Program-made: the position numbers and the translations under genes
Virus record (IMG/VR): IMGVR_UViG_2737471852_000002
Location: 1 to 51,736 of that record
Source of the DNA: a virus
Taxonomy: Duplodnaviria > Heunggongvirae > Uroviricota > Caudoviricetes
Direction: 5' to 3' (one strand)
Length of the DNA stretch: 51,736 bases
Shown: in pieces, positions 1 through 11,334 of the stretch
Layout of the letters: each line of letters starts with the position of its first letter
How positions within the stretch are numbered: the first letter of the stretch is position 1
Notes under the pieces: model-generated
What the model was told of the DNA's origin: nothing
Database searches by the model: none
The model's input: the letters and a program-made list of their open reading frames with translations, nothing else

Positions 1-789
1 TCAATATCTCTTATTAGGGTTTATTGAGTACTTTTTAAGCTTTGAAGCTACCCGACCAGCGTTACTGTTAGCATTGGTGACGTTGGTTTTTTCAGCTTCT
101 GTTAAGTCTGAATAATCCAGCTTCCAAGCCTTATTACATTTAATCTGAGCATCGAGAATATCATTTCTGATAGCTGGAGCGTAACCGGATACATCGCTAA
201 TATTCATTAATTCTTTGCACGATAGCATAGGCGCGTTATTGCGTTCAGTGGTCACGTTACCTGCATTCTTCTTACTGGTCACACCACCATCATTTGTGGT
301 AGCCGTTTTGCCAGTGGCTGCTGAAATATCAGTTTGCCCTACAATAACCTTAAAGTTGATTTCCTGAAAAGTTAGCTGGATTCTTAAGCCGTTTGAAATA
401 CCAACATCTTTAGAGGCTTTAAAACTAGTAATAATGGAATCGTCAATCTTAATCCCGTCTTTACAAATTACCGAAATAATCTGCTTCTGGTCACGCCAGT
501 TTTCAAGGGTGTCGATGAAGTTTTCTACTAATTGACCCTGACGAGTTAGTAATAAACTTCCTTCATAACCAACTACAACGACACCACTAATAGTGATTGT
601 TCTGGGTGCTCTTTGAACATTATCTGTGACGGTTTGCCCTGATTGCATGTTCTGTGTAGTTACCTGCATAGGACTATCAAATTCCATGTTTTCAGTTGCT
701 GATAAGGTTAAGAAGGCATCTACATTATCTCTTAAGTGGAAATAGATGCCATCTTTGCCACTGTAACGAATCTGATTAGAGTAAATCAT
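1..789 (-). CDS. phage tail-associated protein (possible distal tail protein) of the AT-rich module
   Basis: 262-aa ORF immediately downstream of the tape-measure-like gene on the same strand; AAGGAG 6 nt upstream of ATG at 789; no catalytic motif recognised. Confidence 0.4.
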
Positions 790-864
790 TAAATTCTCCT
801 TTGATTTCAAAGGCTTAGTGTATTTTAATCATTTTTAACCAAGCCTTTGATATATAAGTATTTT

Positions 865-904
865 CTCTGTTAAGCGTGAGCTACGTAAAAAATAATTTTT
901 GGTG
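865..904. repeat. 40-bp perfect direct repeat, copy 1 (second copy at 3138-3177)
   Basis: ctctgttaagcgtgagctacgtaaaaaataatttttggtg is identical at both positions; both copies are followed by ttcacgtag about 20 bp later. Confidence 0.85.
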
Positions 905-945
905 TGGGTATTAACTTTGCTTTATTCACGTAGAACACCGTTAAA

Positions 946-3123
946 TCAATCATCTTCTGGGAATGATGAACTTAATAGCGTAGCTTCTGCATATTGGTCG
1001 TAGATATTACTGCTAAAGGTCATAAAGCTGGTTTCATCTGGTTTAATGGCAACTTCACCACCAAGTGAAACTTTCACAGGCTCCTGAATACGTTTGCTCA
1101 AAGCACTAATTTCATCTCTCAGACTCTGAATATCTGCGCTGGTTAATGCTGAATCTTGCTTAATGTTGTTTAACTCTGGATGATTGAATCTTGCAATATT
1201 CATTGTGGCATTGTTAAACAATTCACCCATTGAACTAAAAATTTTATTCCATCCTTCGTTAATCATATTCGGTTTATTAGGGTCACCAGAATACACAGGA
1301 TTAAAGTCACTACCCACACCTACCCCAGATGGATGCATATTAGCGTTTTTGACTACTTCCTGATTCATAAAATCCAGTGCTTTCTTCAATGCATATAAAC
1401 CAAGAGTGACGCCTCTGATTTGTGGAATCATTGAAGCTAATGCTAACGCTGTTTCATAACCGTCATCAGCATAACCGATTGCAAGAGCACTACCTACACC
1501 ACCAGCTACACCTTTCAGTTTTCCACCACCTTTACCAGTAGCTACCTGACCAGCCACCTGATTAGCTCTTGTACCTAACGTTGTGATTGCTCTTGTCAGG
1601 TTCATAACCCCTGTAGTAGCACTGAATAGTGTCTTTGCAGATAACGCTATAGCAAGACCTTTGACAAAATTGATAAAACCATCACCGACTTCATCAAGTA
1701 GTTTTCGTTTAGTGTCATCAAGGCTGTAATAGAGCTGCTTAACCTGTAAAATCCAGCCTTCAATGTGATTGTTAAAGATACGGATGTCATCTACACCAGC
1801 TTTAAGCATGTCGATAAGTCCACCGATAGCATCACCAGCGATAGAAGAACTCATCCCCATTTCACTAAGCAGGTTACTCAGGCTGGATAAGAAGCCGTTT
1901 AGCTCATCCTGTGAACCTGAGAAGATTTTCACCATCGTGTCATCCCAGTTGTTTGCTAACTTACCTAAAGCTGTCTGGGTGCTCTTAGCGACTTCAGCCC
2001 AGCCACCCGCTTTATCAATCATCAAGCCCATCTGTTTAGCGACTTTAGGAAGAGTATCAGCGGAAAGAATCTTCCCGTCTTTCATCGCTTTATCAAGCTC
2101 TGTAGCAGTCATACCCAATGCTTCAGCGAACAGCTTAAATGCACCAGCCATACGGTCACCTAGCTGACCACGTAATTCCTCAGCCTGAATCTTGCCCTTA
2201 GAAGCCATCTGCTCAAAAGCTTTCAAAATGCCGTTTAGCTCGTCGTTAGAAAGCCCCATTAAGCGACTCATAGCCGTTGCATTACCAAATAGCTCCTGTG
2301 TCTGTTCCTGTGACATAGAACCCTGAGCACCTGCTGCAAACTTAGCGTAGCTTGATAGTCCTTCAGAGATATTAAGACCTGTCTTGTCTGCTAGATTTCG
2401 AATAAATACCTCAGCCTCAGAGGCTTTATCACCAAGTACAAACTTAGCGGCTCTCTGTGCGGAATCTCGTTTAAGACCTGCATTCATAATGGCCTTGTAA
2501 GCGTTAAGAGCACCCATCACAGAGTAAAATGCACCAGATAACTTAATTGCATTGCTTGCAAGATTATTAAATGCGTCGCTTGTATTACTAATGCTGGTGG
2601 ATGTATGACCTCTGGCTTTAGCAATTGCTTCTCGGACTGAAGAATTTAACTGAGCCAACTTCTCATTGAATTTTGAATTATCCATCTGACCAGCTTTAGC
2701 AGATAGCCCGTAAAACTGAGATTTGATGTATTTCTGCAAAATAGGGTCAAAGCCTTTTAGCTTGCTCATATTCGCTGAGTAAGCTGCTGTGATTGCTCTG
2801 TTTCCGCTAATTCGTGGCTGTCTTGGTTGTTTTGGAGGATTAACAGTGTCATTAAATCTGGTGGCAAACTGAAATGCTCTTGTGTTTCTTGCTCTCTGTT
2901 CAATCTTGTCAAAGGTCTTATTAAACTTCCTTTCAAGTTGCCCTAAAGAACTTGTCAGATTACTGTCAAGTTGCTTGGTATCGACCTTAAACGCTCTATT
3001 CAAATTACGTTCAATTCTTTGTGCTGACTGCAAAGCTGCCTTTTCAACTCTTTGCAAGCCCTTAATAACGCTCTCGCTGAAGCCTAGCTCAACGATAAAA
3101 CTATCAACTTTAAATTGTGCCAT
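946..3123 (-). CDS. tail tape measure-like protein (AT-rich module)
   Basis: 725-aa ORF, long helical and coiled-coil-like N-terminal half, glycine-rich hydrophobic segments (GKGGGKLKGVAGGVGSALAIGY), followed by a tail-protein-like gene; GAGGTG RBS before ATG at 3123. Confidence 0.55.
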   Translation of the reverse strand: MAQFKVDSFIVELGFSESVIKGLQRVEKAALQSAQRIERNLNRAFKVDTKQLDSNLTSSLGQLERKFNKTFDKIEQRARNTRAFQFATRFNDTVNPPKQPRQPRISGNRAITAAYSANMSKLKGFDPILQKYIKSQFYGLSAKAGQMDNSKFNEKLAQLNSSVREAIAKARGHTSTSISNTSDAFNNLASNAIKLSGAFYSVMGALNAYKAIMNAGLKRDSAQRAAKFVLGDKASEAEVFIRNLADKTGLNISEGLSSYAKFAAGAQGSMSQEQTQELFGNATAMSRLMGLSNDELNGILKAFEQMASKGKIQAEELRGQLGDRMAGAFKLFAEALGMTATELDKAMKDGKILSADTLPKVAKQMGLMIDKAGGWAEVAKSTQTALGKLANNWDDTMVKIFSGSQDELNGFLSSLSNLLSEMGMSSSIAGDAIGGLIDMLKAGVDDIRIFNNHIEGWILQVKQLYYSLDDTKRKLLDEVGDGFINFVKGLAIALSAKTLFSATTGVMNLTRAITTLGTRANQVAGQVATGKGGGKLKGVAGGVGSALAIGYADDGYETALALASMIPQIRGVTLGLYALKKALDFMNQEVVKNANMHPSGVGVGSDFNPVYSGDPNKPNMINEGWNKIFSSMGELFNNATMNIARFNHPELNNIKQDSALTSADIQSLRDEISALSKRIQEPVKVSLGGEVAIKPDETSFMTFSSNIYDQYAEATLLSSSFPEDD

Positions 3124-3137
3124 TGTTCATATTTCAC

Positions 3138-3177
3138 CTCTGTTAAGCGTGAGCTACGTAAAAAATAATTTTTGGTG
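3138..3177. repeat. 40-bp perfect direct repeat, copy 2
   Basis: identical to 865-904; lies 15 bp upstream of the tape-measure-like gene start. Confidence 0.85.
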
Positions 3178-3330
3178 GGTATATCTGTTCAGAAGATTTC
3201 ACGTAGCACATAGGATTCGATAGAAGACTATCTCATATACAAAAAAGGGAGAAACTACCGAATAATATCGATAATCTCTCCCCGTGTTATAGATTCGATA
3301 GAACCTATCTCATACACCCAACCAATTCTT

Positions 3331-3546
3331 TTAATGCATGACAAGATAATGTAGTTCCGTTTCACCTATGATTTGAGCATCAGAAGGAATACGGTCGATA
3401 CACCATTTTGGAATCTTGCGTGTTTTTGGTTTGCGTGAGGTGATAATTTGATGTTTGGTTTTAATTCTTAAGGCTGGCTTAGTTTGTAACTTTAAGTTTT
3501 CACAAACAGACTTAATAGTTTCATAGCGTTCTGTTAAATCAATCAT
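3331..3546 (-). CDS. hypothetical basic small protein
   Basis: 71-aa ORF, lysine/arginine-rich; no family recognised. Confidence 0.25.
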   Translation of the reverse strand: MIDLTERYETIKSVCENLKLQTKPALRIKTKHQIITSRKPKTRKIPKWCIDRIPSDAQIIGETELHYLVMH

Positions 3547-3569
3547 TAATCACCTCACATATTGCATAA

Positions 3570-4274
3570 TCAAACAGCCTTGCTAAATTCTCGTGGAACA
3601 CTCAGAAAATCATTGAAGCTGATAATCTGTGCCAACTCTTGACGGTACTCCTTAGCCAGCGCTTGATGGTCACTAATCAGCTTAGCCAGTCTTGATTTCA
3701 GTAAATTAATCTCATTTTCTCTTGCTTTCATCAGTTTCTCTTTGGCAATTTCTTCAAGCTCAGCTTGTGATTTATCAGCAACAATTAGAGACAGTCGATG
3801 TGGCGCTCTAATGGCTCTTTCTGTACGAACAACTCTTTGACCTTCTGGTAAATCTGCAATCACTTTACCAATCTCTACAGGGTCATACCCCCAACCGTCA
3901 CGGTCTAGTCGAGAGAAATAAGCATAAGGATTGGTTTGAAGCTCCATCAAAATAGCCATTTCGTCAATTTCGTCTTCAAGCTTGGACTGAATTTTCTCGT
4001 AAACACTTCTCATTGCTTCTTGAGAGTCTTTAATAGCTTGGAAATATCGGCGTTGTAGCTTCAACTTCAAATCAAGTTCACACCGTTCGTTCATAGAAAA
4101 ATCAATTTCAACTCTTGGAATCTCGAGTGGTTCTGGTGGAATATATGGACCTTTATTTACTTCGTGTGATTCCCGCCAAGCTCTATCAAAAGATTCACGC
4201 AAACTTAATTCGTGAATATCAAGTGCACTTGGTCGGCTTTCAATAATCATTTCATTTTCATCACGGATAGCCAT
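3570..4274 (-). CDS. hypothetical protein
   Basis: 234-aa ORF in the AT-rich module; charged and helical; no family recognised. Confidence 0.35.
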   Translation of the reverse strand: MAIRDENEMIIESRPSALDIHELSLRESFDRAWRESHEVNKGPYIPPEPLEIPRVEIDFSMNERCELDLKLKLQRRYFQAIKDSQEAMRSVYEKIQSKLEDEIDEMAILMELQTNPYAYFSRLDRDGWGYDPVEIGKVIADLPEGQRVVRTERAIRAPHRLSLIVADKSQAELEEIAKEKLMKARENEINLLKSRLAKLISDHQALAKEYRQELAQIISFNDFLSVPREFSKAV

Positions 4275-4762
4275 TAATACCTTTCCTCTTCTAAGATAAT
4301 TTATGTTTCAGTTTTTAAAAAGCACACCTGACATCCTCGAACTTAGAAGAGGCTTAAAAGGCGTTTGCCAAGTATGCTTTTTAAAAACTGAATAGCCCTA
4401 GATAATTTCTTATAAAGGGCCATTCATAAGGTGAAGAAATTAAAACATCTAAAGGATTCAAACGAATGAACAAAGACTTTTCGAGATGACCTCTCAGGTT
4501 GTATAAGAGGCCATGTAGCGAAAAGCATTGCACCTTTCAGAATGTTCGGTATAGAACATACCTCACCAACTCAGAATATCCATCCATCGGATTATTGAAA
4601 GAAATAAGAGAGAAATTCTCTCTATAATTAAAATTATGTCATGCTTAAGGTTATTTGTCAACAGCTTTTTAACAGATTGGTAACATTAATTCTTATTTAC
4701 CGTATTACCTACCCAGCAACCAACAAATAGCCCTAGCAACGTCCAAGCAATTATTAAACCCA

Positions 4763-5086
4763 TTAGTGAATCCTCACAGAATCCGTCACCAGAATATTGT
4801 CAGCGTACAGGATTGTCACAGCACCTTTCAAAAATTGCTCTGGGGAAATACTGTATTTATTCGTTTGCTCGATAACCAATCTTTTCATGCTGCTGTCTGC
4901 AATTGGTAGCATCATTCGAGGCTCGTTAAACTCCACCGACTGAATAAAGTCAGAGATGTTTTCTGCATTATCGGCCATCAGCTTTAACAGCCTGTCAAAA
5001 TCAATTGTCACACCTGCATCAGTGAAGCTTTGCACCATCATAGCGGTGTCGCTATCAACGAAAATCTGTAGCGGGAAGTTGTTCAT
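4763..5086 (-). CDS. hypothetical protein
   Basis: 107-aa ORF; no family recognised. Confidence 0.35.
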   Translation of the reverse strand: MNNFPLQIFVDSDTAMMVQSFTDAGVTIDFDRLLKLMADNAENISDFIQSVEFNEPRMMLPIADSSMKRLVIEQTNKYSISPEQFLKGAVTILYADNILVTDSVRIH

Positions 5087-5108
5087 TTCTTAAAATCTCC
5101 TTTTTACC

Positions 5109-5240
5109 AGACCTCCTCAATCGCTCTGTAACGAGCTAAACAGTCTTTTTCAGGGGTAGCCTGTACAGTGGTATTACCCACCCTAAAATAAGATAGTTTT
5201 TTGCGTTAGAATGCGATTGAGAGCGTCTGAGAAGCTGTTT
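5109..5240 (+). repeat. about 120-nt repeated element, copy B1 (paralogue at 6796-6905)
   Basis: shared 5' block agacctcYtcaatcgctctgtaacgagYtaaa and 3' block ttgYgtYagaatgcgRttgagRgcgtct; ctcaatcgc / gcgattgag can pair as a long-range stem. Confidence 0.5.
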
Positions 5241-5242
5241 TT

Positions 5243-5530
5243 CTAATTTCTCTTAAAGTCTCGGACTTGCATAAGATTTTTTGGTCTGGTATCGGCTCTG
5301 TTACCATTTCGATGGATAATTTGCTTATTGGATTGATAGCCATGATAAAGGAACCAGACAACATATTTCACATAGAATGTGTATCGACCTATATTAAATG
5401 TTTTGTTGCCGTAGTCGTCGGTATTTATCGTGACTGACCCCCCATCAGACCAGCACAGGGAATCACTGGATTCATCATAGATAAGGTGTTCTGCAAAATA
5501 TCTTCTAACATCTTCATGCCAAGGTTTCAT
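5243..5530 (-). CDS. HNH endonuclease (small HNH_3-type)
   Basis: 95-aa ORF with GYxxN...IHRNGNRADTRPKNL resembling the H-N-G ... DNR ... NL core of phage HNH nucleases; last gene of a 4-gene overlapping operon. Confidence 0.5.
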   Translation of the reverse strand: MKPWHEDVRRYFAEHLIYDESSDSLCWSDGGSVTINTDDYGNKTFNIGRYTFYVKYVVWFLYHGYQSNKQIIHRNGNRADTRPKNLMQVRDFKRN

Positions 5531-5742
5531 AAAACCTCCTCACCCCAATAACCTAATTCAATCTTATGACGTTCAAACCATTCCGGTTTAACTGCTGTTT
5601 TCAGTGTTTCATTTGGGCCAATGGCTTTAATGAAAATATCTTTTGAGTTATGGATGTCACCGAATCCGTTTCCTTTAATCAGGAGGTCGGAGATGTAGCG
5701 AATCATTTTATCTGTGTGGTATTCAAAGGTAACGCATAGCAT
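5527..5742 (-). CDS. hypothetical protein, translationally coupled to the HNH gene
   Basis: 71-aa ORF; its stop overlaps the HNH start by 4 nt. Confidence 0.35.
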   Translation of the reverse strand: MLCVTFEYHTDKMIRYISDLLIKGNGFGDIHNSKDIFIKAIGPNETLKTAVKPEWFERHKIELGYWGEEVL

Positions 5743-6020
5743 CAGACCTCCAGAGACAGTTTGCGAATCTTGATGCTCAATAGACGGGCAATATCAATTT
5801 TAAAGCTGTTAAGTGCCTTCAAAGTATCTAAAGCGTCCGTAGTAATTCGGATGTGCTTACGACCTTTAGAGACTGGATATTTAAGTAAATCCGACTCAGT
5901 GACTTCTTTAGCGATTGCAAGTTGCATAACAGTTTGATGAGGCAAGTTAGTCGCTCGTTTAATTCTGGTAAGCTCGTTAAAAGCTTCCTCTGAAATACGG
6001 GTTAATGTGTGTTTATTCAT
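5742..6020 (-). CDS. hypothetical protein (possible small DNA-binding protein)
   Basis: 92-aa ORF abutting both neighbours; basic and helical. Confidence 0.35.
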   Translation of the reverse strand: MNKHTLTRISEEAFNELTRIKRATNLPHQTVMQLAIAKEVTESDLLKYPVSKGRKHIRITTDALDTLKALNSFKIDIARLLSIKIRKLSLEV

Positions 6021-6021
6021 T

Positions 6022-6579
6022 TTAAAATTCCTCTGTAACTAAATACGGGTCAAACTCGAAATCTGGTTGCTCGTTTTCCATTGGCTCAATATTCCCAACG
6101 GCAACATGATGTTCAACAATACCAATTAGCTTTGCACACATTACAGCAAGCAATGCACAATATTTATCGCTTGGTAATTCATAACTAAGTCTGGTTGCTT
6201 GTCGCTGAAGATAATTTGTCACGGTAGCTGAGTTAATTTCATCAAGATTCTTTAGAATATAAAATAGCTTTCTGTTGTATTTTGGGTGACCTTCGCTTCT
6301 GCAAAATCCGATAATTACATCTTCAAACTTGCGTGATAATTGCTCGTAAGAATCAACGTTAGCCAAATAATTTTTGATGCTGTTCTGGGTGCTCTTTCTG
6401 GTTGACATATAACGACTCCTCGGTGTAATTGCCCGAATTACTTCGTCAATGCCTTTGCGTTCTGCTCTGGTGAACTTGGGTACTTCGTGGCTGGTGGGGT
6501 TGTTTGTGTAAGCGTAGGAGTTGTGCTTGTTGCGTTCTCTCGATGCCTGAAGCATCGCTCTAAATTCTCTGTCGTTCAT
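6022..6579 (-). CDS. hypothetical protein, first gene of the 4-gene operon
   Basis: 185-aa ORF; the 6022/6020 junction and tight packing indicate co-transcription. Confidence 0.4.
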   Translation of the reverse strand: MNDREFRAMLQASRERNKHNSYAYTNNPTSHEVPKFTRAERKGIDEVIRAITPRSRYMSTRKSTQNSIKNYLANVDSYEQLSRKFEDVIIGFCRSEGHPKYNRKLFYILKNLDEINSATVTNYLQRQATRLSYELPSDKYCALLAVMCAKLIGIVEHHVAVGNIEPMENEQPDFEFDPYLVTEEF

Positions 6580-6663
6580 TCATAAGCTAGTCCTTATAAT
6601 TGTTAATTCTCTGTTAACTTATATAGACAATACTAGCATTTTCAAAGACTAATGTCAAGCATT

Positions 6664-6696
6664 TTTTAACATTTCATTAACATCTGTGGTATAATG
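6664..6696 (+). promoter_or_regulatory. predicted sigma70 promoter with extended -10
   Basis: TTAACA, 18-bp spacer ending in TG, then TATAAT (tgtggtataatggg). Confidence 0.4.
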
Positions 6697-6795
6697 GGTT
6701 TATGGGGAGAGTAAAATATGAGGCGTGGCTATGAGGTTTATTCGATAAACCGAATCAACTATGAGAGTGGTCACATGGTTATTGCATTGCACACA

Positions 6796-6905
6796 GACCT
6801 CTTCAATCGCTCTGTAACGAGTTAAATGGCCTCTTCAGGTCAACTCATAAGGTCAGGTACTTTTTTGTGTCAGAATGCGGTTGAGGGCGTCTCACAAGGA
6901 AATTT
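6796..6905 (+). repeat. about 120-nt repeated element, copy B2
   Basis: paralogue of 5109-5240; the two changes within the candidate stem (gcggttgag vs gcgattgag) convert A-U pairs to G-U wobble pairs when read on the + strand. Confidence 0.5.
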
Positions 6906-6906
6906 A

Positions 6907-7083
6907 ATGGTAAATCTCCCTCCTGAACTGGGGTCACCTGATGTATGGGCTGGTGGAGGTATTGGACTTATTGCAGGTCTGCTACTTCGTTACGTCCTTG
7001 TCAGAGTGCTTGTTGTCTTTAAACTGTTCGGTCGTACATGGACGCTTGACCTTAAGGATAACGACCATACAGAACCCCGCTAA
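6907..7083 (+). CDS. possible small membrane protein
   Basis: 58-aa ORF with AAGGA RBS and a hydrophobic core (GGGIGLIAGLLLRYVLVRVLVVF), downstream of the promoter at 6664-6696 and element B2. Confidence 0.25.
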   Translation: MVNLPPELGSPDVWAGGGIGLIAGLLLRYVLVRVLVVFKLFGRTWTLDLKDNDHTEPR

Positions 7084-7200
7084 ACTCCCTTCAAAACCCC
7101 CTGTACGTGATGGTATAGGGGTATCTTTAGCATTTTGTGCTATCTATTAAAAAATAGCTTGACAGAACAGGAAAGCTGTATCTATCAAGCATTCACCTCT

Positions 7201-7385
7201 CTGACAGTAATTTCTAAAAGTTCTTATTTTTCAATAAGTTGTAATTAGCCATATATAGAGAACTGACAAGTCTCTTCACAGTTAACTCTGTAACCTTAAC
7301 AGTAACTTCTAAAAATACTTATTTTTCAATGAGTTGTAATCACCCAATATATAAGACTGTCCAGTACCTTCACAGATAACTTCAA
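7201..7385. repeat. imperfect tandem duplication of about 90 bp
   Basis: acagtaaYttctaaaaRtNcttatttttcaatRagttgtaat ... cttcacag occurs twice head to tail. Confidence 0.6.
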
Positions 7386-8472
7386 GCCTTCTTAGCTATC
7401 CACTAAGCGGGAGAAGAGCGACACCCAAGAAAGGGAAGCTCCCTTCTTAACCGACCTTCTTAACCAGCCCTTTACGTTATTCGTTCACAGTGTTGATAAG
7501 TGGTTTTGCCCTCTGTTTCTGTTATCATCGGGCTTACCTTATCAGGGCTTTGAAATGTCCCTGTAACTTCCCTCTTAACGGGAGAGAAAGAACATAGTGA
7601 CCCCAAGCGAAGCGCCCCTCTAAAAGATTTTTTAGCTATTTTGTTTAAAAACATATCAAACGATACATTTTATTGATTTAGGTCAAAGACAAAAGCATTG
7701 ACAAAATGGTATGATTGTTCACATAGCCCTCTCTTAACAGACTTTTTAAGAGCTTTTGAGAAGTTTGTTAAACAGACACTCTTTCTGGAGTGTTGTCTTT
7801 TACTTAAGAGGCTTGTTTAGGTAACTCTCAAGACATTTCTTAAGACTTCACTGTTAAGATAGAACCTACCTTCGGTTTCATGGTTCTCTTCCTCCCGTTA
7901 AACAGTTCTTCCTAGCAACTTCATAGTTCTCTGTCAAGTATCTTTGAAGATTCTATCAAAACCCTCTAAATCTGACCTGATATAGATGCTGTGAAGGCAT
8001 GTTCTCTAGGTCTGTGTAGCTCACTAAGCGAGAGAGGGGATATGGTGACCATAGGGGAACCCCTCCTACTTAAAAGAACTATTTGATATTATTGTGATGG
8101 TTGTTTAAGATGCAACTGTGCAGACACCTTAACGGTTTCTCTACACCCCTTATAGTCTGGCGAGGTAGGGTACGGCTAGGTAGGGTGTGGTTGGGTCTGG
8201 TATGGGTGGATTGTCGTAGCCACGTTAAAAATCGACTTGTAAAGGGACTCTTTCGGGAGTCCTTTTTAGTTTGTATAAAATCTGTACAGTAACTTTTCAG
8301 ATTCTGAAAATTTTTATAAAAAATAATCAGGCCTCTTCTAAGTCTCTTCAACCAAATCTTTCAAAAATATCACAAGACTATGTATACCTGCTAAGTACCC
8401 GTCACTACGCCTAAGTGGTCCCCTTTGCAAAAAAGCCAAATATCAGTCACATCCATGTAACTATTCAGTAAC

Positions 8473-9021
8473 TTATTTAGCAAGTCTGTAATAAGTTGCT
8501 CTAGAGATTCCTAACTCTTCCTGAATCTGCAACCTCGTTTTACCTTGTGAAATAAGCATCTTTACAGTCTCTGAAGAAGCTTTTACGGGTCTCCCCATGT
8601 GAACCCCTTCAGCTTTAGCACGTTCAATACCAGCCTTTCTACGTTCACTGATAAGGTCTTTTTCAAGGTCAGCTAAACCAGCCATCATAGTAAGCATTGC
8701 TCTACCGATTGGTGTTAATAAGTCGAAACCTTCACGCAAAGAAACAACTCTCACACCTTTAGACTGTAGTGACTCCACGTTAGAGAGCACATCAACGGTA
8801 TTACGCCCTAAACGGTCAATAGCTACCACAACTAACGTATCGTCACACCTTACATAGTTCATCATGTCTCTAAAACCATCTCTGCTGGTGGCCTTTGTAG
8901 TTCCTGAGACAGCCTCATCAATAAACCATTTATCGACCTTGTGAACCTTCTCTATCTGTAGTTTCTGGTTGTCTACAGTCTGGTCTTGTGTTGATACCCT
9001 GCAATAACCAATCACCGCCAT
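8473..9021 (-). CDS. small serine recombinase (resolvase/invertase family)
   Basis: 182 aa; N-terminal VIGYCRVSTQDQ with catalytic Ser context, C-terminal HTH (RLQIQEELGISRATYYRLAK). Confidence 0.85.
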   Translation of the reverse strand: MAVIGYCRVSTQDQTVDNQKLQIEKVHKVDKWFIDEAVSGTTKATSRDGFRDMMNYVRCDDTLVVVAIDRLGRNTVDVLSNVESLQSKGVRVVSLREGFDLLTPIGRAMLTMMAGLADLEKDLISERRKAGIERAKAEGVHMGRPVKASSETVKMLISQGKTRLQIQEELGISRATYYRLAK

Positions 9022-9032
9022 ACATCCCCCTT

Positions 9033-9160
9033 AGAAGTCTCAAAAGTTAGTCTCATAAGTTTAGCTGTCTCATAATCCAAAAACAACCTTTTGAGACTAC
9101 TTGAGGGTGCATTCTACCGTTACGTTGAAAGTGTCTCAAAAGGAAGTCCTTTTAAGACTG
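9033..9160. promoter_or_regulatory. cluster of direct and inverted GTCTCA(A/T)AAG motifs; candidate res/crossover site
   Basis: motif at about 9037, 9051, 9068, 9131 and inverted at about 9088 and 9149; 9133-9158 forms a 26-bp palindrome gtctcaaaag-gaagtc-cttttaagac; directly upstream of the recombinase gene. Confidence 0.4.
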
Positions 9161-9802
9161 GTTATGAAGGAGCTATGAGGTTGATTCCTAGAACTAACCG
9201 AATCAACTATAACCATCACCTCCTAATATTCACGTAGGAAATCGTTAAGGGTTTTATAGTTACACCATGTGACCAACTGCATGAATAGCGTTATATACTC
9301 CTGTATATAGCACTTTTCTAGGAGTCGAGAGAGGAACGACTAACACGATACAGTTTACCCTGAAAAGAGACTTCACAGATTCTCTATATATTTCAATAAG
9401 TTATGCTAAAAAGAGACTATACCGATACTGTATAGAATCTGTGTAAAACTGCTTAGATACTTGGGAAAATGCCTTTAAATTGCATAATCATAGGGGTTGG
9501 AACAAGCCCAACTACACCTGATAAAGCCTGTTATTAACAGGTCTCTTAGAAAACCGAATAGACTTCATTCAAGGGTCATTGAAGTCATAATCATTTCAGT
9601 AGAAAAACCAGGTCTCGATTTTAAATGCAAATAGCAATCATATTCAATAAGGCAAGACGATCAGGATCAGTGAAAATGTCATTTTTGGCGTAATTACCCT
9701 TACTTTATGCATGGCCTCAACAAAGACATCATCTTTCCGTTGCAGATCTTCGCCCTTTCAAATAACGTACTTTACAACTTTCCCGAACAAGGAGTTGTGC
9801 CC

Positions 9803-10099
9803 GTGTTGTATGTTATTTACGCTCAAGACAAAGCTGATAGCCTCGAAAAACGCCTTTCCGTTCGTCCGGCACATTTAGCACGTTTACAGTTACTGCATGA
9901 TGAAGGTCGTTTGTTGACAGCTGGTCCAATGCCAGCGGTAGACAGTAACGATCCAGGGGCTGCGGGATTTACTGGCTCAACCGTTATTGCTGAATTTGAA
10001 TCGCTGGAAGCAGCTCAGGCCTGGGCCGATGCTGACCCGTACGTAGCGGCAGGAGTCTATGAACACGTTTCAGTGAAACCATTTAAGAAAGTGTTCTAA
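9803..10099 (+). CDS. YciI-like (Dabb-fold) small protein
   Basis: about 99 aa from a GTG 8 nt after AAGGAG; [21 protein letters not shown] and C-terminal [17 protein letters not shown] resemble the YciI family; GC content host-like. Confidence 0.5.
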
Positions 10100-10217: not shown

Positions 10218-10766
10218 TCAGCTAGCTGGAAACTTTTTATACAGAGTTGAGAGCCCTACTCCATACGTTTTTGATACGCTTTGTCGTGATTCACCGGTTG
10301 CCATCCGCTCCCCCATTTCCCGCCATTGCTCATCCGTGAACTTAGGCCTGCGACCACCAACTCGCCCTTTTGCCCTGGCTACGGCCAGCCCTGCTAAGGT
10401 ACGTTCGCTATTAAGATCAGATTCATATTGTGCTGCGGAAAGGATGTTACGAAAGTTATAGCGGCCGCTGGCTGTTTTGAGATCCACGCCATCGGTAATA
10501 CTGCGGAAGTTGATACCCTTTTCCTGTAACTGCTGGAACATCAACAGCGCATGCAGAACGTTGCGGCCTATCCTGTCCAGCTTCCAGACCACCAGTTCAT
10601 CCCCCGGCTGCATAGTGGCGATCAGCCGTTTTAGAACCGGCCGATTCGATTTCCTCCCGCTGGCATGCTCTTCAAAAATTTTCTCACAACCCGCTGACTT
10701 GAGCGCCGTTAGTTGCAATTCAGTGTCCTGGTGGTTTGTTGATACTCGGGCATAACCGTAAATCAT
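10218..10766 (-). CDS. pin: Pin/Gin/Hin-family DNA invertase (serine recombinase)
   Basis: MIYGYARVSTNHQD N-terminus, resolvase catalytic domain and C-terminal HTH; AGGAGA RBS; immediately beside the invertible tail-fibre segment. Confidence 0.9.
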   Translation of the reverse strand: MIYGYARVSTNHQDTELQLTALKSAGCEKIFEEHASGRKSNRPVLKRLIATMQPGDELVVWKLDRIGRNVLHALLMFQQLQEKGINFRSITDGVDLKTASGRYNFRNILSAAQYESDLNSERTLAGLAVARAKGRVGGRRPKFTDEQWREMGERMATGESRQSVSKTYGVGLSTLYKKFPAS

Positions 10767-10825
10767 GGGATTTCTCCTGTTATGAAAACAGGAGAAACGG
10801 CGAAGCATCACCAGATTTTTGATGG

Positions 10826-10851
10826 TTATAAAAAAGGTTGGTTTGGGAGAA
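10826..10851. other. 26-bp invertase crossover site (hix/gix-like), left
   Basis: TTATAAAAAAGG-TT-GGTTTGGGAGAA; one half-site is the reverse complement of TTCTCCCAAACC, close to the gix/hix half-sites as I recall them. Confidence 0.7.
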
Positions 10852-11334
10852 GGTTCGGCATTACCCGTTGGCGTGCCTGTTCCGTGGCCTTCCGCCACTC
10901 CGCCAACAGGCTGGCTGAAATGCAACGGGGCGGCTTTTTCTGCTGAAGAATACCCGGAACTGGCAAAGGTTTACCCGACAAATAAATTGCCTGATTTACG
11001 CGGTGAGTTTATTCGTGGCTGGGATGATGGAAGAGGGATTGATACTAACCGTAGCTTGCTTTCGTCACAGGGAGATACCATTCGGAATATAACAGGCTTT
11101 ATAAATGAAGTTAAAGGCACCATTGATACAGCAACTTTCAGGTTACAGACTGGTACTGGTGCTTTTGCCTTAGCATCTCAAGCTACGCGAAATATCTATA
11201 ATAACCTAGGCACATATGAAACAAAAAATACCCCTTACACAGGATTCAGTTTTGATGCATCCAGGGTTGTACCAACAGCATCAGAGAATCGCCCTCGAAA
11301 CATTGCATTTAACTATATCGTGAGAGCAGCATAA
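10852..11334 (+). CDS. alternative tail-fibre C-terminal cassette, currently in the unexpressed orientation
   Basis: begins at the crossover with ...GLGEGSALPVGVPVPWP...GWLKCNGAAFS...YPELAKVYP...DLRGEFIRGWDDGRG, the classic variable C-terminal domain of Mu S / lambda Stf-type fibres; no start codon of its own. Confidence 0.7.
   Translation, partial: GSALPVGVPVPWPSATPPTGWLKCNGAAFSAEEYPELAKVYPTNKLPDLRGEFIRGWDDGRGIDTNRSLLSSQGDTIRNITGFINEVKGTIDTATFRLQTGTGAFALASQATRNIYNNLGTYETKNTPYTGFSFDASRVVPTASENRPRNIAFNYIVRAA

What the first reader, a model, noticed from the sequence alone, without database searches (positions are those of the whole stretch)
8160..8215. G-rich reiterated motif (GGTAGGGT-type, four copies) in the ORF-poor region
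ggtagggtacggctaggtagggtgtggttgggtctggtatgggtgg contains four spaced GGG tracts within about 50 bp on the + strand, which stands out in a strongly AT-rich context. It could be a repeated protein-recognition motif or form a G-quadruplex.
Basis: seen in the sequence. Interest (0 to 1): 0.25.

Follow-up and report, generated by a model that had tools for sequence, protein, structure and literature searches.

The report
Orphan VIPR guide RNA on satellite
The G-rich stretch is the gene for a small guide RNA of the recently described phage VIPR system (a CRISPR-like, RNA-guided DNA-silencing system), carried without its partner protein by a phage satellite integrated in E. coli; it is real and functional-looking, but already described.

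Summary
The sequence is real and non-random, but its unit is not "GGTAGGGT x4". It is nine GGY-NN pentamers in strict register (8159-8203, + strand), followed by a conserved 3' pseudoknot (8200-8239). A sigma-70-like promoter (8129-8156) and an intrinsic terminator (8241-8270) flank it, predicting an RNA of about 108 nt.

The same architecture occurs 2-4 times per genome in FelixO1-like (Ounavirinae) phages. There it lies next to a ~195-aa protein that matches PDB 36pp "SUSP1 Vipr protein" (E = 5e-80). Two 2026 bioRxiv preprints describe this as the VIPR system. Vipr, a Cas7-like RAMP protein, polymerises on the GGY triplets of a vrRNA. The variable NN dinucleotides then read double-stranded DNA, skipping every third base, and silence transcription.

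Window 1 to about 9650 is the Ounavirinae satellite those papers describe. It carries a vrRNA but no vipr gene.

Applying the published rule here:
- Eight helper-phage vrRNAs match the window, all inside the satellite.
- The window's own guide matches sibling satellites at 17 of 18 NN bases (0 of 300 shuffles reach this).
- It does not match its own diverged allele at 7995-8019.

A conserved G-quadruplex is not supported.

Verdict: already known. It is a further instance of a satellite-borne orphan vrRNA.

The parts
8129..8156 (+). Sigma-70-like promoter of the vrRNA gene (-35 TTAACG 8129-8134, 16-nt spacer, -10 TATAGT 8151-8156). The predicted start is about 8162-8164.
   Evidence: Consensus scan. 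The same promoter block (ACCTTAACGGTTTCTCTAC...) precedes the vrRNA in sibling satellites L003, L154, L031 and L166. It is a prediction only; the transcription start is not mapped.
8159..8203 (+). Guide region of the vrRNA: nine GGY-NN pentamers. The NN code is GA AG AC TA AG GT TG CT AT, with a possible extra 5' NN = CT at 8157-8158.
   Evidence: Sequence. Unique in the window, with 0 matches in 100 shuffles. In 43 homologues the register is strict for 12-13 units: G 0.7-0.95, G 0.9-1.0, T 0.8-1.0, N, N.
8200..8239 (+). Conserved 3' tail forming an H-type pseudoknot. S1 is 8206-8209 (GTGG) with 8220-8223 (CCAC). S2 is 8213-8216 (GTCG) with 8233-8236 (CGAC). The A-rich loop 3 is 8224-8232 (GTTAAAAAT).
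   Evidence: Outside S2 the tail is identical, up to the end of S2, to the class-B tail of Ounavirinae vrRNAs. Covariation on 23 distinct tails: 88.9% of cells paired (shuffles 69.5%; slid controls 29-40%), and 9 of 11 pairs change on both sides.
8241..8270 (+). Intrinsic terminator (11-bp stem AAAGGGACTC/GGGAGTCCTTTT, then a T run), giving an RNA of about 108 nt.
   Evidence: MFE fold. Conserved in sibling satellites.
7995..8019 (-). The window's own allele of the site that its vrRNA is predicted to target in sibling satellites. Here it has diverged and does not match, so there is no self-targeting.
   Evidence: Target in L154, L166 and L167: CTTGATAGTATCTAGAGAGTATGCCT, 17 of 18 NN bases. The homologous window sequence is AGGCATGTTCTCTAGGTCTGTGTAG. 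The best self hit anywhere in the window scores 8, below shuffle controls.
1..9650 (.). Right-hand ~9.6 kb of an ~11-12 kb Ounavirinae (SUSP1/FelixO1-like) phage satellite. Contents: Dit/baseplate-hub gene 1-810, tape measure 946-3123, small ORFs, HNH 5243-5530, a 1.9-kb ORF-poor RNA region 6580-8470, and a small serine recombinase 8473-9021. It is integrated between tonB and yciI (yciI-like ORF at 9707-10099). The right boundary is approximate.
   Evidence: The baseplate protein is 72.9% identical to the Ounavirinae protein next to their tape measure, matching the 72% stated in the preprint. L160 and L161 show the same tonB|yciI insertion.
6194..6237 (-). Predicted target of a helper-phage vrRNA (contig L016): 28 of 30 NN bases over 15 units, inside ORF 6022-6579, with the skipped base at codon position 3.
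6377..6423 (-). Predicted target of a helper-phage vrRNA (L028): 29 of 32 NN bases over 16 units, inside ORF 6022-6579, with the skipped base at codon position 3.
7549..7586 (+). Predicted target of a helper-phage vrRNA (L027): 24 of 26 NN bases over 13 units. It is intergenic and overlaps the start of a repeated structured motif.
1859..1887 (-). Predicted target of a helper-phage vrRNA (L028, second guide): 20 of 20 NN bases over 10 units, in the tape-measure gene, with the skipped base at codon position 3.
4879..4913 (-). Predicted target of a helper-phage vrRNA (L024): 22 of 24 NN bases over 12 units, in ORF 4763-5086, with the skipped base at codon position 2.
2867..2895 (+). Predicted target of a helper-phage vrRNA (L017): 19 of 20 NN bases over 10 units, in the tape-measure gene.
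1592..1617 (+). Predicted target of a helper-phage vrRNA (L015): 17 of 18 NN bases over 9 units, in the tape-measure gene.
5926..5951 (+). Predicted target of a helper-phage vrRNA (L024, second guide): 17 of 18 NN bases over 9 units, in ORF 5742-6020.

Best explanation
Window 8159-8270 (+) is the gene for a vrRNA, the guide RNA of a type II (SUSP1-clade) VIPR system. It is carried as an orphan, with no vipr or vap gene, by a satellite of FelixO1-like (Ounavirinae) phages.

Mechanism from the two preprints: Vipr, a minimal Cas7-like RAMP protein, polymerises one protomer per pentamer along the RNA. Each GGY triplet is flipped out and held by protein, leaving the NN dinucleotides exposed. The 3' pseudoknot caps the filament. 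The NN bases pair with double-stranded DNA whose matching strand reads NNxNNx, skipping one base per unit. This forms a gapped R-loop/triplex that blocks transcription.

Inferred for this copy: the satellite makes the ~108-nt RNA from its own promoter. Because the satellite has no Vipr, the RNA can act only when an infecting helper phage supplies Vipr. Its tail is the helper's class-B tail, so it should load onto that protein. Its code (CT) GA AG AC TA AG GT TG CT directs the complex to a site roughly 180 bp upstream of the vrRNA gene in rival sibling satellites. The window's own allele of that site has diverged and is spared. In turn, the window's satellite is itself a predicted target of at least eight helper-phage vrRNAs.
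For: Shown here:
1. The only part of window 6500-9300 with phage matches is 8155-8236, found in 62 Ounavirinae genomes in an intergenic region next to DNA ligase.
2. In 43 distinct copies the pentamers keep a strict GGT-NN register for 12-13 units, with hypervariable NN.
3. The tail pseudoknot is supported by covariation: 88.9% of cells paired against 29-40% in slid controls, and 9 of 11 pairs change on both sides.
4. In 49 of 72 viral loci holding degenerate (GGTNN)n arrays, a ~200-aa protein family lies on the same strand within 2.5 kb, within about 100 bp in many loci. It is phrog_4652 with no Pfam match. Its profile hits PDB 36pp "SUSP1 Vipr protein" at E = 5.3e-80. Its AlphaFold model (pLDDT 94) resembles Csm3/Cas7 RAMPs.
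5. An HMM of that family finds nothing in any frame of the window.
6. Under the published NNx rule, eight helper vrRNAs score 15-24 in the window. Across all guides the highest shuffle score was 15 (mean about 10), and for each of these eight guides its own 20 shuffles reached at most 11-13. All eight sites lie in the 19% of the window that is satellite. Six of the seven coding hits place the skipped base at codon position 3, as the preprint reports.
7. The window's guide matches 17 of 18 NN bases in satellites L154, L166 and L167. None of 300 unit-order shuffles reached 17 over 486 kb scanned. It has no self match.
8. A second satellite guide type (L031/L154) matches 20 of 22 in L156, L158 and L163, against a shuffle maximum of 17.
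9. The satellite's baseplate protein is 72.9% identical to that of Ounavirinae.

From the literature:
- VIPR definition, sRNA-seq, pull-down, the 1-nt skip rule, satellite targeting, and the statement that some satellites encode their own vrRNAs against closely related satellites (10.64898/2026.04.26.720920).
- Structural mechanism (10.64898/2026.04.26.720927).
Against: - Expression of this copy is only predicted from consensus promoter and terminator matches. Nothing here shows the RNA is made.
- Loading onto a helper's Vipr is an inference from tail identity.
- S2 of the window's pseudoknot is only 4 bp (GTCG/CGAC), against 5-7 bp in phage copies.
- The guide is short: 8-10 units depending on the real 5' end, at the bottom of the published range of 9-16.
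- The best target is 17 of 18, not perfect. It was found in a sample of about 20 satellites, not the whole pangenome.
- The sibling-satellite loci are homologous to each other, so the search space is less independent than its size suggests.
- Both source papers are preprints.
Confidence: 0.88

Rival explanations
1. Decoy or sponge. The satellite's vipr-less vrRNA mainly titrates the helper phage's Vipr protein away from the helper's own anti-satellite guides. It would protect the satellite rather than target anything.
For: The satellite is heavily targeted by helper vrRNAs: eight predicted sites. It carries the helper-type tail but no vipr. It has its own promoter, so the RNA could be present before infection.
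Against: A pure decoy needs no particular NN code. Yet this guide and a second satellite guide type both have matches in sibling satellites that no shuffle reaches: 17 of 18 with 0 of 300 shuffles, and 20 of 22 against a shuffle maximum of 17. A single 9-unit RNA is a weak competitor against the four vrRNAs that sRNA-seq detected from the infecting phage SUSP1. The two roles are not mutually exclusive.
Confidence: 0.12
2. Inert relic. A vrRNA fragment picked up from a helper phage by recombination, no longer expressed or used.
For: There is no vipr in the window. Only about 6 of the 20 or so satellite loci examined carry a vrRNA. The guide is short and S2 is short.
Against: The promoter, strict pentamer register, compensated pseudoknot (S2 changed on both strands relative to phage copies) and terminator are all intact. 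They are conserved among satellites whose guides differ. The guides have above-chance targets.
Confidence: 0.06
3. G-quadruplex-forming regulatory element in DNA or RNA.
For: There are four GGG tracts in about 50 nt, and many GG runs could in principle form two-tier quadruplexes.
Against: GGG tracts are not conserved: only 13 of 67 homologous guide regions have four or more, and 1 of 67 fits the canonical motif, which the window copy does not. The conserved unit includes the pyrimidine and a fixed 5-nt register tied to a pseudoknot. In the solved complexes the guanines are held individually by protein.
Confidence: 0.02
4. Double-stranded DNA protein-binding iterons (replication origin, pac site or primase hot-spot) shared by helper and satellite.
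For: A satellite might need helper cis-sites. The array is strongly strand-asymmetric. I considered T7-type primase sites (GGGTC/TGGTC).
Against: A period of 5 bp does not fit binding on one face of the helix. The N positions are free. The interleaved compensatory pairs indicate a folded single strand. Promoter and terminator bracket the element. sRNA-seq in the preprint shows ~100-nt RNAs that co-purify with Vipr.
Confidence: 0.02

Closest known systems
vrRNAs of the type II VIPR system of Escherichia phage SUSP1 and other Ounavirinae (bioRxiv 10.64898/2026.04.26.720920; structures in 10.64898/2026.04.26.720927; PDB 36pp)
   Same: GGY-NN pentamer tract in strict register. The same 3' tail sequence (GTATGGGTGGAT...TAGCCACGTTAAAAAT...) and pseudoknot topology. 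Length about 100 nt. Targets obey the 1-nt-skip code. The preprint itself states that satellites of these phages carry their own vrRNAs aimed at related satellites.
   Different: No adjacent vipr or vap genes. A single stand-alone gene with its own sigma-70-like promoter and intrinsic terminator, instead of an array of 3+1 around vipr. S2 of the pseudoknot is GTCG/CGAC, compensated on both strands. Only 8-10 units.
CRISPR crRNA on a Class 1 Cas7 backbone (Cascade / Csm / Cmr)
   Same: A RAMP protein polymerises along a guide RNA that is capped by a structured handle. A thumb domain interrupts pairing periodically. The system is programmable against invading genetic elements. The partner protein's model resembles Csm3/Cas7.
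   Different: The guide is non-contiguous: 2 nt read and 3 nt held by protein per 5-nt unit, and the target skips 1 in 3. There is no repeat-spacer array, no adaptation genes and no PAM. It is encoded by viruses and satellites. In type II the outcome is silencing, not cleavage.
TRAP (MtrB) binding sites in the Bacillus trp leader: 11 (G/U)AG triplets with 2-3-nt spacers
   Same: A conserved triplet plus a 2-nt spacer gives a 5-nt period, with about 9-16 units, each triplet bound by one subunit of a protein oligomer. This analogy led me to look for a partner protein.
   Different: The triplet is GGY, not (G/U)AG. The protein is a helical RAMP filament, not an 11-mer ring. The spacers carry the information instead of being irrelevant. 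The function is DNA targeting, not attenuation.
Orphan CRISPR arrays and mini-arrays on phages and satellites that use a Cas machinery encoded elsewhere
   Same: A guide-only locus on a mobile element that depends on effector proteins supplied in trans and is aimed at competing mobile elements.
   Different: A different guide chemistry and protein family. Here the effector would come from the helper phage that the satellite parasitises.

Membership tests
VIPR vrRNA (guide RNA), type II / SUSP1 clade | Tract of 9-16 YNNGG (GGY/NN) pentamers with conserved GGY and hypervariable NN | tested here: met
   Nine GGY-NN units at 8159-8203, ten YNNGG units if 8156-8160 is transcribed. Across 43 homologues: G .7-.95, G .9-1, T .8-1, N, N in fixed register. 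If transcription starts at 8162-8164, as predicted, only eight complete units remain, which is borderline.
VIPR vrRNA (guide RNA), type II / SUSP1 clade | Invariant 3' tail that folds into a pseudoknot | tested here: met
   The tail at 8200-8239 aligns without gaps to 22 other tails. S1 is 100% paired and S2 82.6% paired. 9 of 11 pairs change on both sides. Slid controls give 29-40%.
VIPR vrRNA (guide RNA), type II / SUSP1 clade | Expressed as a small RNA of about 100 nt | not testable with these tools
   Only predicted: -35/-10 at 8129-8156 and a terminator at 8241-8270 give about 108 nt. sRNA-seq exists for SUSP1 vrRNAs, not for this copy.
VIPR vrRNA (guide RNA), type II / SUSP1 clade | Natural target matching at least 80% of NN positions under the 1-nt-skip rule, with no self-target | tested here: met
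   17 of 18 (94%) in sibling satellites L154, L166 and L167; 0 of 300 shuffles reach 17. The best self hit in the window is below shuffle level. Only about 20 satellites were sampled.
VIPR vrRNA (guide RNA), type II / SUSP1 clade | Binds Vipr protein (co-purifies as an RNP) | not testable with these tools
   Inferred from tail identity with phage vrRNAs that co-purify with SUSP1 Vipr.
Complete VIPR locus (vipr + vap + vrRNAs) | A vipr (minimal RAMP) gene adjacent to the vrRNA(s) | tested here: not met
   An HMM built from 39 diverse Vipr homologues, run against all six frames of the 51.7-kb window, gave a best E of 2.4. The window therefore holds an orphan guide, not a VIPR system. In the phage homologues vipr lies a few hundred bp or less from the arrays (95-517 bp in the Ounavirinae-type loci) and matches PDB 36pp.
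Complete VIPR locus (vipr + vap + vrRNAs) | An accessory vap gene next to vipr | not tested
   No vipr is present, so no vap was sought. The gene after vipr in Ounavirinae (146 aa) was not analysed.
SUSP1/Ounavirinae satellite phage (as described in the VIPR preprint) | Tape-measure and baseplate-hub genes homologous to the helper's (baseplate about 72% identical), in a small integrated element targeted by helper vrRNAs | tested here: met
   Dit-like protein 1-810 is 72.9% identical to the Ounavirinae protein beside their tape measure, with 253 records covering at least 80%. TMP at 946-3123. The element is ~11-12 kb with serine recombinases in 550 of 5426 E. coli genomes. Eight helper-guide hits. 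Actual mobilisation by a helper was not tested.
G-quadruplex motif | Four G-tracts of at least 3 with loops of 1-7 nt, conserved among homologues | tested here: not met
   The window copy fails the canonical pattern. Only 1 of 67 homologous guide regions fits it, and 13 of 67 have four or more GGG tracts. Two-tier G4 formation in vitro was not tested.
CRISPR array | Direct repeats of about 24-48 nt separated by unique spacers of similar length | tested here: not met
   No such repeats were found. There was no meaningful Rfam CRISPR-DR hit: only one at E = 3.1, at 7627-7652.
TRAP-binding RNA | (G/U)AG triplets with 2-3-nt spacers | tested here: not met
   The period matches, but the triplet is GGY. 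This is an analogy only.

The most novel reading that the evidence does not exclude
The vipr-less satellite vrRNA is a parasitic guide with two edges. Pre-made from the satellite's own promoter, it captures the incoming helper phage's Vipr protein, which blunts the helper's eight or more anti-satellite guides. It also redirects that protein to a promoter-proximal site next to the vrRNA/ncRNA locus of rival satellites. Guide and target-site alleles (window allele 7995-8019 against the L154/L166/L167 allele) would then define incompatibility groups among satellites. The published work states that satellites carry vrRNAs aimed at related satellites. It does not, in the text read here, address titration of helper Vipr or allele-based immunity.
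Probability: 0.15. Interest if true: 0.55.

Novelty: already known. Interest (0 to 1): 0.3.

Why it matters
VIPR is a newly reported RNA-guided DNA-recognition system, proposed as an ancestor of the CRISPR RAMP proteins. It uses a non-contiguous code: read 2 bases, skip 1.

This window gives an independent, tool-only re-derivation of the system. The steps were array, then partner protein, then the PDB entry, then target prediction.

The window also shows a concrete three-layer conflict in one locus:
- Helper-phage guides aimed at the satellite.
- A satellite-borne orphan guide aimed at sibling satellites.
- A diverged self allele at the homologous site.

For genome annotation, it shows that such G-rich pentamer tracts in ORF-poor regions of prophages and satellites should be called as vrRNA genes even when no vipr gene is nearby. 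Neither Rfam 15 nor RefSeq annotates them.

Tried and rejected
- **Rfam.** Gathering threshold on the whole window and E <= 10 on 6500-9300 gave no relevant family.
- **ARAGORN.** No tRNA or tmRNA.
- **Coding potential.** ORFs 8101-8292 (+) and 8079-8351 (-) overlap the element. A 5-nt period is incompatible with coding, and RefSeq annotates nothing there in the 97.7%-identical locus.
- **Literature searches.** Three searches with generic terms (Felixounavirus, intergenic repeats, GGUNN, GGTNN) found nothing. The link came only through the PDB name of the partner protein.
- **Ideas dropped before the protein was found:**
  - A TRAP-like ring-protein site: right in spirit, wrong protein.
  - T7-type primase recognition sites (GGGTC/TGGTC): the N positions are free.
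  - An R-loop replication origin or pac site.
  - tRNA CCA-end pairing.
  - A CsrA/Hfq sponge.
  - A preQ1-like riboswitch pseudoknot: no Rfam hit.
  - A telomerase- or DRT2-like template.
- **Microsatellites.** Plain (GGTTA)n, (GGTCT)n and (GGTCG)n repeats found by the (GGTNN)6GGT scan are a different thing. I separated them by unit diversity.
- **tblastn against Silverhawkium.** Satellite proteins against Silverhawkium 1-45000 gave no hit, presumably because its tape-measure/baseplate genes lie in the part of the genome I did not fetch. A protein search of the phage collection settled the question.
- **First target scan.** Scanning 1.4 Mb of loci held at that point for the window guide's target gave nothing at 16 of 20 or better. 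Targets appeared only after sibling satellites were fetched.
- **Not done.** The metagenome, genome contigs and representative-protein searches were not used, because the question was settled without them.
Full report
**1. The observation**

The quoted sequence is at 8160-8215 on the + strand. Read in register, it is a run of pentamers, each a GGY triplet followed by two variable bases. The units are GGC-GA, GGT-AG, GGT-AC, GGC-TA, GGT-AG, GGT-GT, GGT-TG, GGT-CT and GGT-AT (8159-8203). The pattern (GGYNN)6GGY occurs only here in the 51.7-kb window and never in 100 dinucleotide-preserving shuffles. The unit, however, is a 5-mer repeated nine times, not a GGTAGGGT octamer repeated four times. 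The GGG tracts are incidental.

**2. Anatomy around it**

A sigma-70-like promoter lies immediately upstream: TTAACG, 16 nt, TATAGT (8129-8156). A strong intrinsic terminator (8241-8266, then a T run) lies downstream on the same strand. Together they bracket about 108 nt.

Between the array and the terminator is a 40-nt block (8200-8239). It can form an H-type pseudoknot:
- S1: GTGG 8206-8209 with CCAC 8220-8223.
- S2: GTCG 8213-8216 with CGAC 8233-8236.
- An A-rich loop: GTTAAAAAT.

The element sits in a 1.9-kb ORF-poor stretch (6580-8470). In the 97.7%-identical RefSeq locus this stretch has no annotated feature. Rfam 15 has no matching family, and there is no tRNA.

**3. Relatives**

A sensitive BLAST of window 6500-9300 against 50,697 phage genomes matched only 8155-8236, which is the element itself. 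The matches were in 62 FelixO1-like (Ounavirinae) phages. There the element lies in an unannotated intergenic region after DNA ligase, on the coding strand.

A pattern scan of IMG/VR for the tail found 48 copies, 43 of them distinct. There are two to four per ~88-kb phage contig, often in tandem. Single copies occur in two prophage-like contigs (L012, L031) that resemble the window.

Upstream of the tail, the pentamers keep a rigid register for 12-13 units with no indels. Frequencies are G 0.7-0.95, G 0.9-1.0, T 0.8-1.0, N, N. The N positions differ freely between phages.

I aligned 23 distinct tails without gaps. They fall into five S1/S2 classes:
- S1: GTGG/CCAC, GTAG/CTAC or AAGG/CCTT.
- S2: GTCG/CGAC, GGTAG/CTACC, AGTCTCA/TGAGACT, AATCGGA/TYCGATT or GGCAG/CTGCC.

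On the pseudoknot I wrote, 88.9% of cells pair, against 69.5% in shuffles and 29-40% when partners are slid by 1-3 columns. Nine of 11 pairs change on both sides. The folded-RNA reading is therefore well supported.

**4. Finding the partner**

A scan for (GGTNN)6GGT hit more than 120 unrelated viral contigs. Besides plain microsatellites, many carry degenerate arrays, often several in tandem separated by short conserved spacers.

The 5-nt period (a conserved triplet plus a 2-nt spacer) recalled the TRAP paradigm, so I looked for a recurrent neighbouring protein. Clustering all ORFs within 2.5 kb of degenerate arrays gave one dominant family. It is about 200 aa, lies on the same strand, and occurs in 49 of 72 loci, within about 100 bp of the array in many of them. 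It has a C-terminal G-x-G-D-W/F/Y-R-P...G-R-F motif. It is phrog_4652 (unknown function) with no Pfam match.

More than 500 homologues are found in metagenomes and in actinobacterial and proteobacterial prophages, all labelled hypothetical. A profile of 44 of them matched PDB 36pp, "SUSP1 Vipr protein", at E = 5.3e-80. The AlphaFold model (pLDDT 94.1) resembles Csm3/Cas7 backbone subunits of type III, VII and I CRISPR complexes.

**5. What is known**

The PDB name led to two 2026 bioRxiv preprints.

The first is 10.64898/2026.04.26.720920. [quoted passage not shown] Each vrRNA is made of 9-16 YNNGG repeats plus an invariant 3' tail, which is a pseudoknot in the SUSP1 clade. Its main findings are:
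- The vrRNAs co-purify with Vipr.
- Specificity lies only in the NN dinucleotides.
- The NN bases pair with double-stranded DNA that reads NNx (the "1-nt skip rule").
- Binding represses transcription.
- In the SUSP1 clade, 18 of 20 natural targets fall on an E. coli satellite phage whose baseplate is 72% identical to SUSP1's.

The second is 10.64898/2026.04.26.720927. It gives cryo-EM structures showing:
- One Vipr protomer per repeat, forming a right-handed filament.
- The GGY bases flipped out and held by H17, D177, R138, W178 and R179.
- The pseudoknot capping the 3' end.
- A gapped RNA-DNA hybrid wrapped around the non-target strand.

In my alignment, H17, K33, R138 and R179 are invariant or nearly so.

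**6. Is the window that satellite, and is this a working guide?**

- Window 1 to about 9650 is low-GC (0.37-0.43). It encodes a Dit/baseplate protein (1-810), a tape measure (946-3123), an HNH protein and a small serine recombinase (8473-9021).
- The baseplate protein is 72.9% identical to the protein next to the tape measure in Ounavirinae. 253 phage records cover at least 80% of it.
- Related ~11-12-kb elements, flanked by a large serine recombinase, occur in 550 of 5426 complete E. coli genomes at several insertion sites. One of these is tonB|yciI, as in the window, which has a yciI-like ORF at 9707-10099.
- An HMM of the Vipr family finds nothing in the window. The vrRNA is therefore an orphan.

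Applying the published NNx rule myself, eight Ounavirinae vrRNAs match the window with scores of 15-24. Across all guides the highest shuffle score was 15 (means about 10). For each of these eight guides, its own 20 shuffles reached at most 11-13. All eight sites fall in the satellite, which is 19% of the window. Six of the seven coding hits put the skipped base at the wobble position, as the preprint reports.

The window's own guide, (CT) GA AG AC TA AG GT TG CT, has no self match. It matches 17 of 18 NN bases at CTTGATAGTATCTAGAGAGTATGCCT in sibling satellites L154, L166 and L167. None of 300 unit-order shuffles reached 17 (maximum 16, once) over 486 kb. Without the 5' CT the match is 15 of 16, and no shuffle reached 15.

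The target lies just downstream of a promoter-like TGACCTGATATAGA box. It is roughly 180 bp upstream of the vrRNA gene once an IS3 insertion in L154 is discounted. The window's homologous stretch (7995-8019) has diverged and no longer matches. A second satellite guide type (L031/L154) matches 20 of 22 in L156, L158 and L163, against a shuffle maximum of 17.

**7. Mechanism, with shown and inferred steps marked**

Shown here:
- The architecture, conservation and covariation.
- The association of such arrays with Vipr.
- The absence of vipr from the window.
- Target matches above chance in both directions.

Taken from the preprints:
- RNA expression.
- Vipr binding.
- The skip rule.
- Silencing.

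Inferred for this copy:
- It is transcribed.
- It loads onto Vipr supplied by an infecting helper. Its tail equals the helper's class-B tail outside the compensated S2.
- It silences a promoter-proximal site in rival satellites.

A decoy role, titrating helper Vipr, is possible in addition, but it does not explain the specific NN matches.

**8.

"Repeated protein-recognition motif" is essentially right, at the RNA level. The G-quadruplex idea is not supported. GGG tracts are not conserved (13 of 67 guide regions have four or more, and 1 of 67 is canonical), and the window copy is not canonical. The conserved features (the pyrimidine, the 5-nt register, the pseudoknot) are not G4 features.

**9. 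Verdict**

This is a genuine, well-formed vrRNA gene of the SUSP1-clade VIPR family, carried as an orphan guide by an Ounavirinae satellite integrated at tonB|yciI. The class, including satellite-borne vrRNAs, is already described in 2026 preprints, so the novelty rating is "already known". The specifics added here are the coordinates, the guide code, the predicted rival-satellite target and diverged self allele, and the eight helper-guide sites. These are incremental. Interest is 0.3.

Noticed in passing
window 7401-7445, 7572-7630, 8020-8067 (+): Three copies of a ~45-60-nt motif (C-CTAAGCG-GAGA ... GTGACC ... a GC hairpin such as AGGGGAACCCCT) in the ORF-poor region. The third begins immediately after the stretch homologous to the vrRNA target site. 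A helper-phage guide (L027) hits 7549-7586, overlapping the start of the second. They may be promoter-proximal parts of satellite ncRNAs that VIPR silences. No Rfam match.
   Followed up: partly
window 7686-7800 (+): A promoter-like site (7686-7715) followed by a terminator-like hairpin (7775-7794 plus a T run) suggests a second small RNA of about 70-80 nt in the same ORF-poor region.
   Followed up: no
window 7204-7381 (+): A ~95-bp tandem duplication (7204-7287 and 7299-7381, 77-88% identical). Each copy carries a promoter-like TTAACA/CTGACA ... TATTTT site.
   Followed up: no
window 6666-7121 (+): A near-consensus promoter (TTAACA, 18 nt, TG-TATAAT; 11 of 12) drives two small ORFs: 6718-6825 (35 aa) and 6826-7083 (85 aa, with a hydrophobic segment). 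They end at a terminator (7098-7121). This is unannotated in the closest RefSeq locus. A 62-aa hypothetical protein is annotated at the corresponding place in L158.
   Followed up: no
window 6727-6762 and 9171-9210 (+): A direct repeat of about 36-40 nt (GCTATGAGGTTkATTC...AACCGAATCAACTAT; the 15-mer is identical) lies 2.44 kb apart, each at the start of a small ORF (MR..NRINY). The pair brackets the RNA region and the small serine recombinase gene.
   Followed up: no
window 7483-7506 and 8923-8946: A 24-nt inverted repeat (83% complementary), with one arm inside the 5' part of the small serine recombinase (DNA-invertase family) gene. It encloses the vrRNA gene. This may be an invertible segment or may be chance. 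In some sibling satellites the small recombinase gene is in the opposite orientation (L155, L157, L162), but it is of a different length.
   Followed up: no
window 9707-10099 and 10218 onwards: A yciI-like ORF marks the chromosomal side of the satellite's tonB|yciI insertion. From about 10.2 kb, GC rises to 0.48-0.58, and a Pin/Gin-type invertase (10218-10925) with tail-fibre-like ORFs begins. This is a separate prophage occupying the rest of the window.
   Followed up: no
loci L045, L055, L131, L130, L052, L044, L062, L153, L124 (IMG/VR contigs): Other VIPR-type array architectures: up to 10 or more (GGTNN)n tracts in tandem, separated by short conserved spacers (for example GGCTAATG, AAGGAATGGTTTAATGAATTTAATT, GGCAGTT), next to divergent Vipr homologues. 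In L058 and L147 the tract is followed by a tRNA-like T-arm (GGTTCGATTCC).
   Followed up: partly
sibling satellites L154-L168 (E. coli genomes): Only about 6 of the 20 or so satellite loci examined carry a vrRNA, with at least four different guides (window/L003, L031/L154, L012, L166). Several satellites are interrupted by IS elements. Cargo near the right end varies between a DNA N-6-adenine methyltransferase and an AP2-domain protein.
   Followed up: partly
phage record MG065664.1 (hit H88): A record named "Campylobacter phage A132" (70.7 kb, unannotated) holds a baseplate gene 72.7% identical to the window's, like the Salmonella and E. coli FelixO1-like phages. The host label or the record may be wrong.
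   Followed up: no
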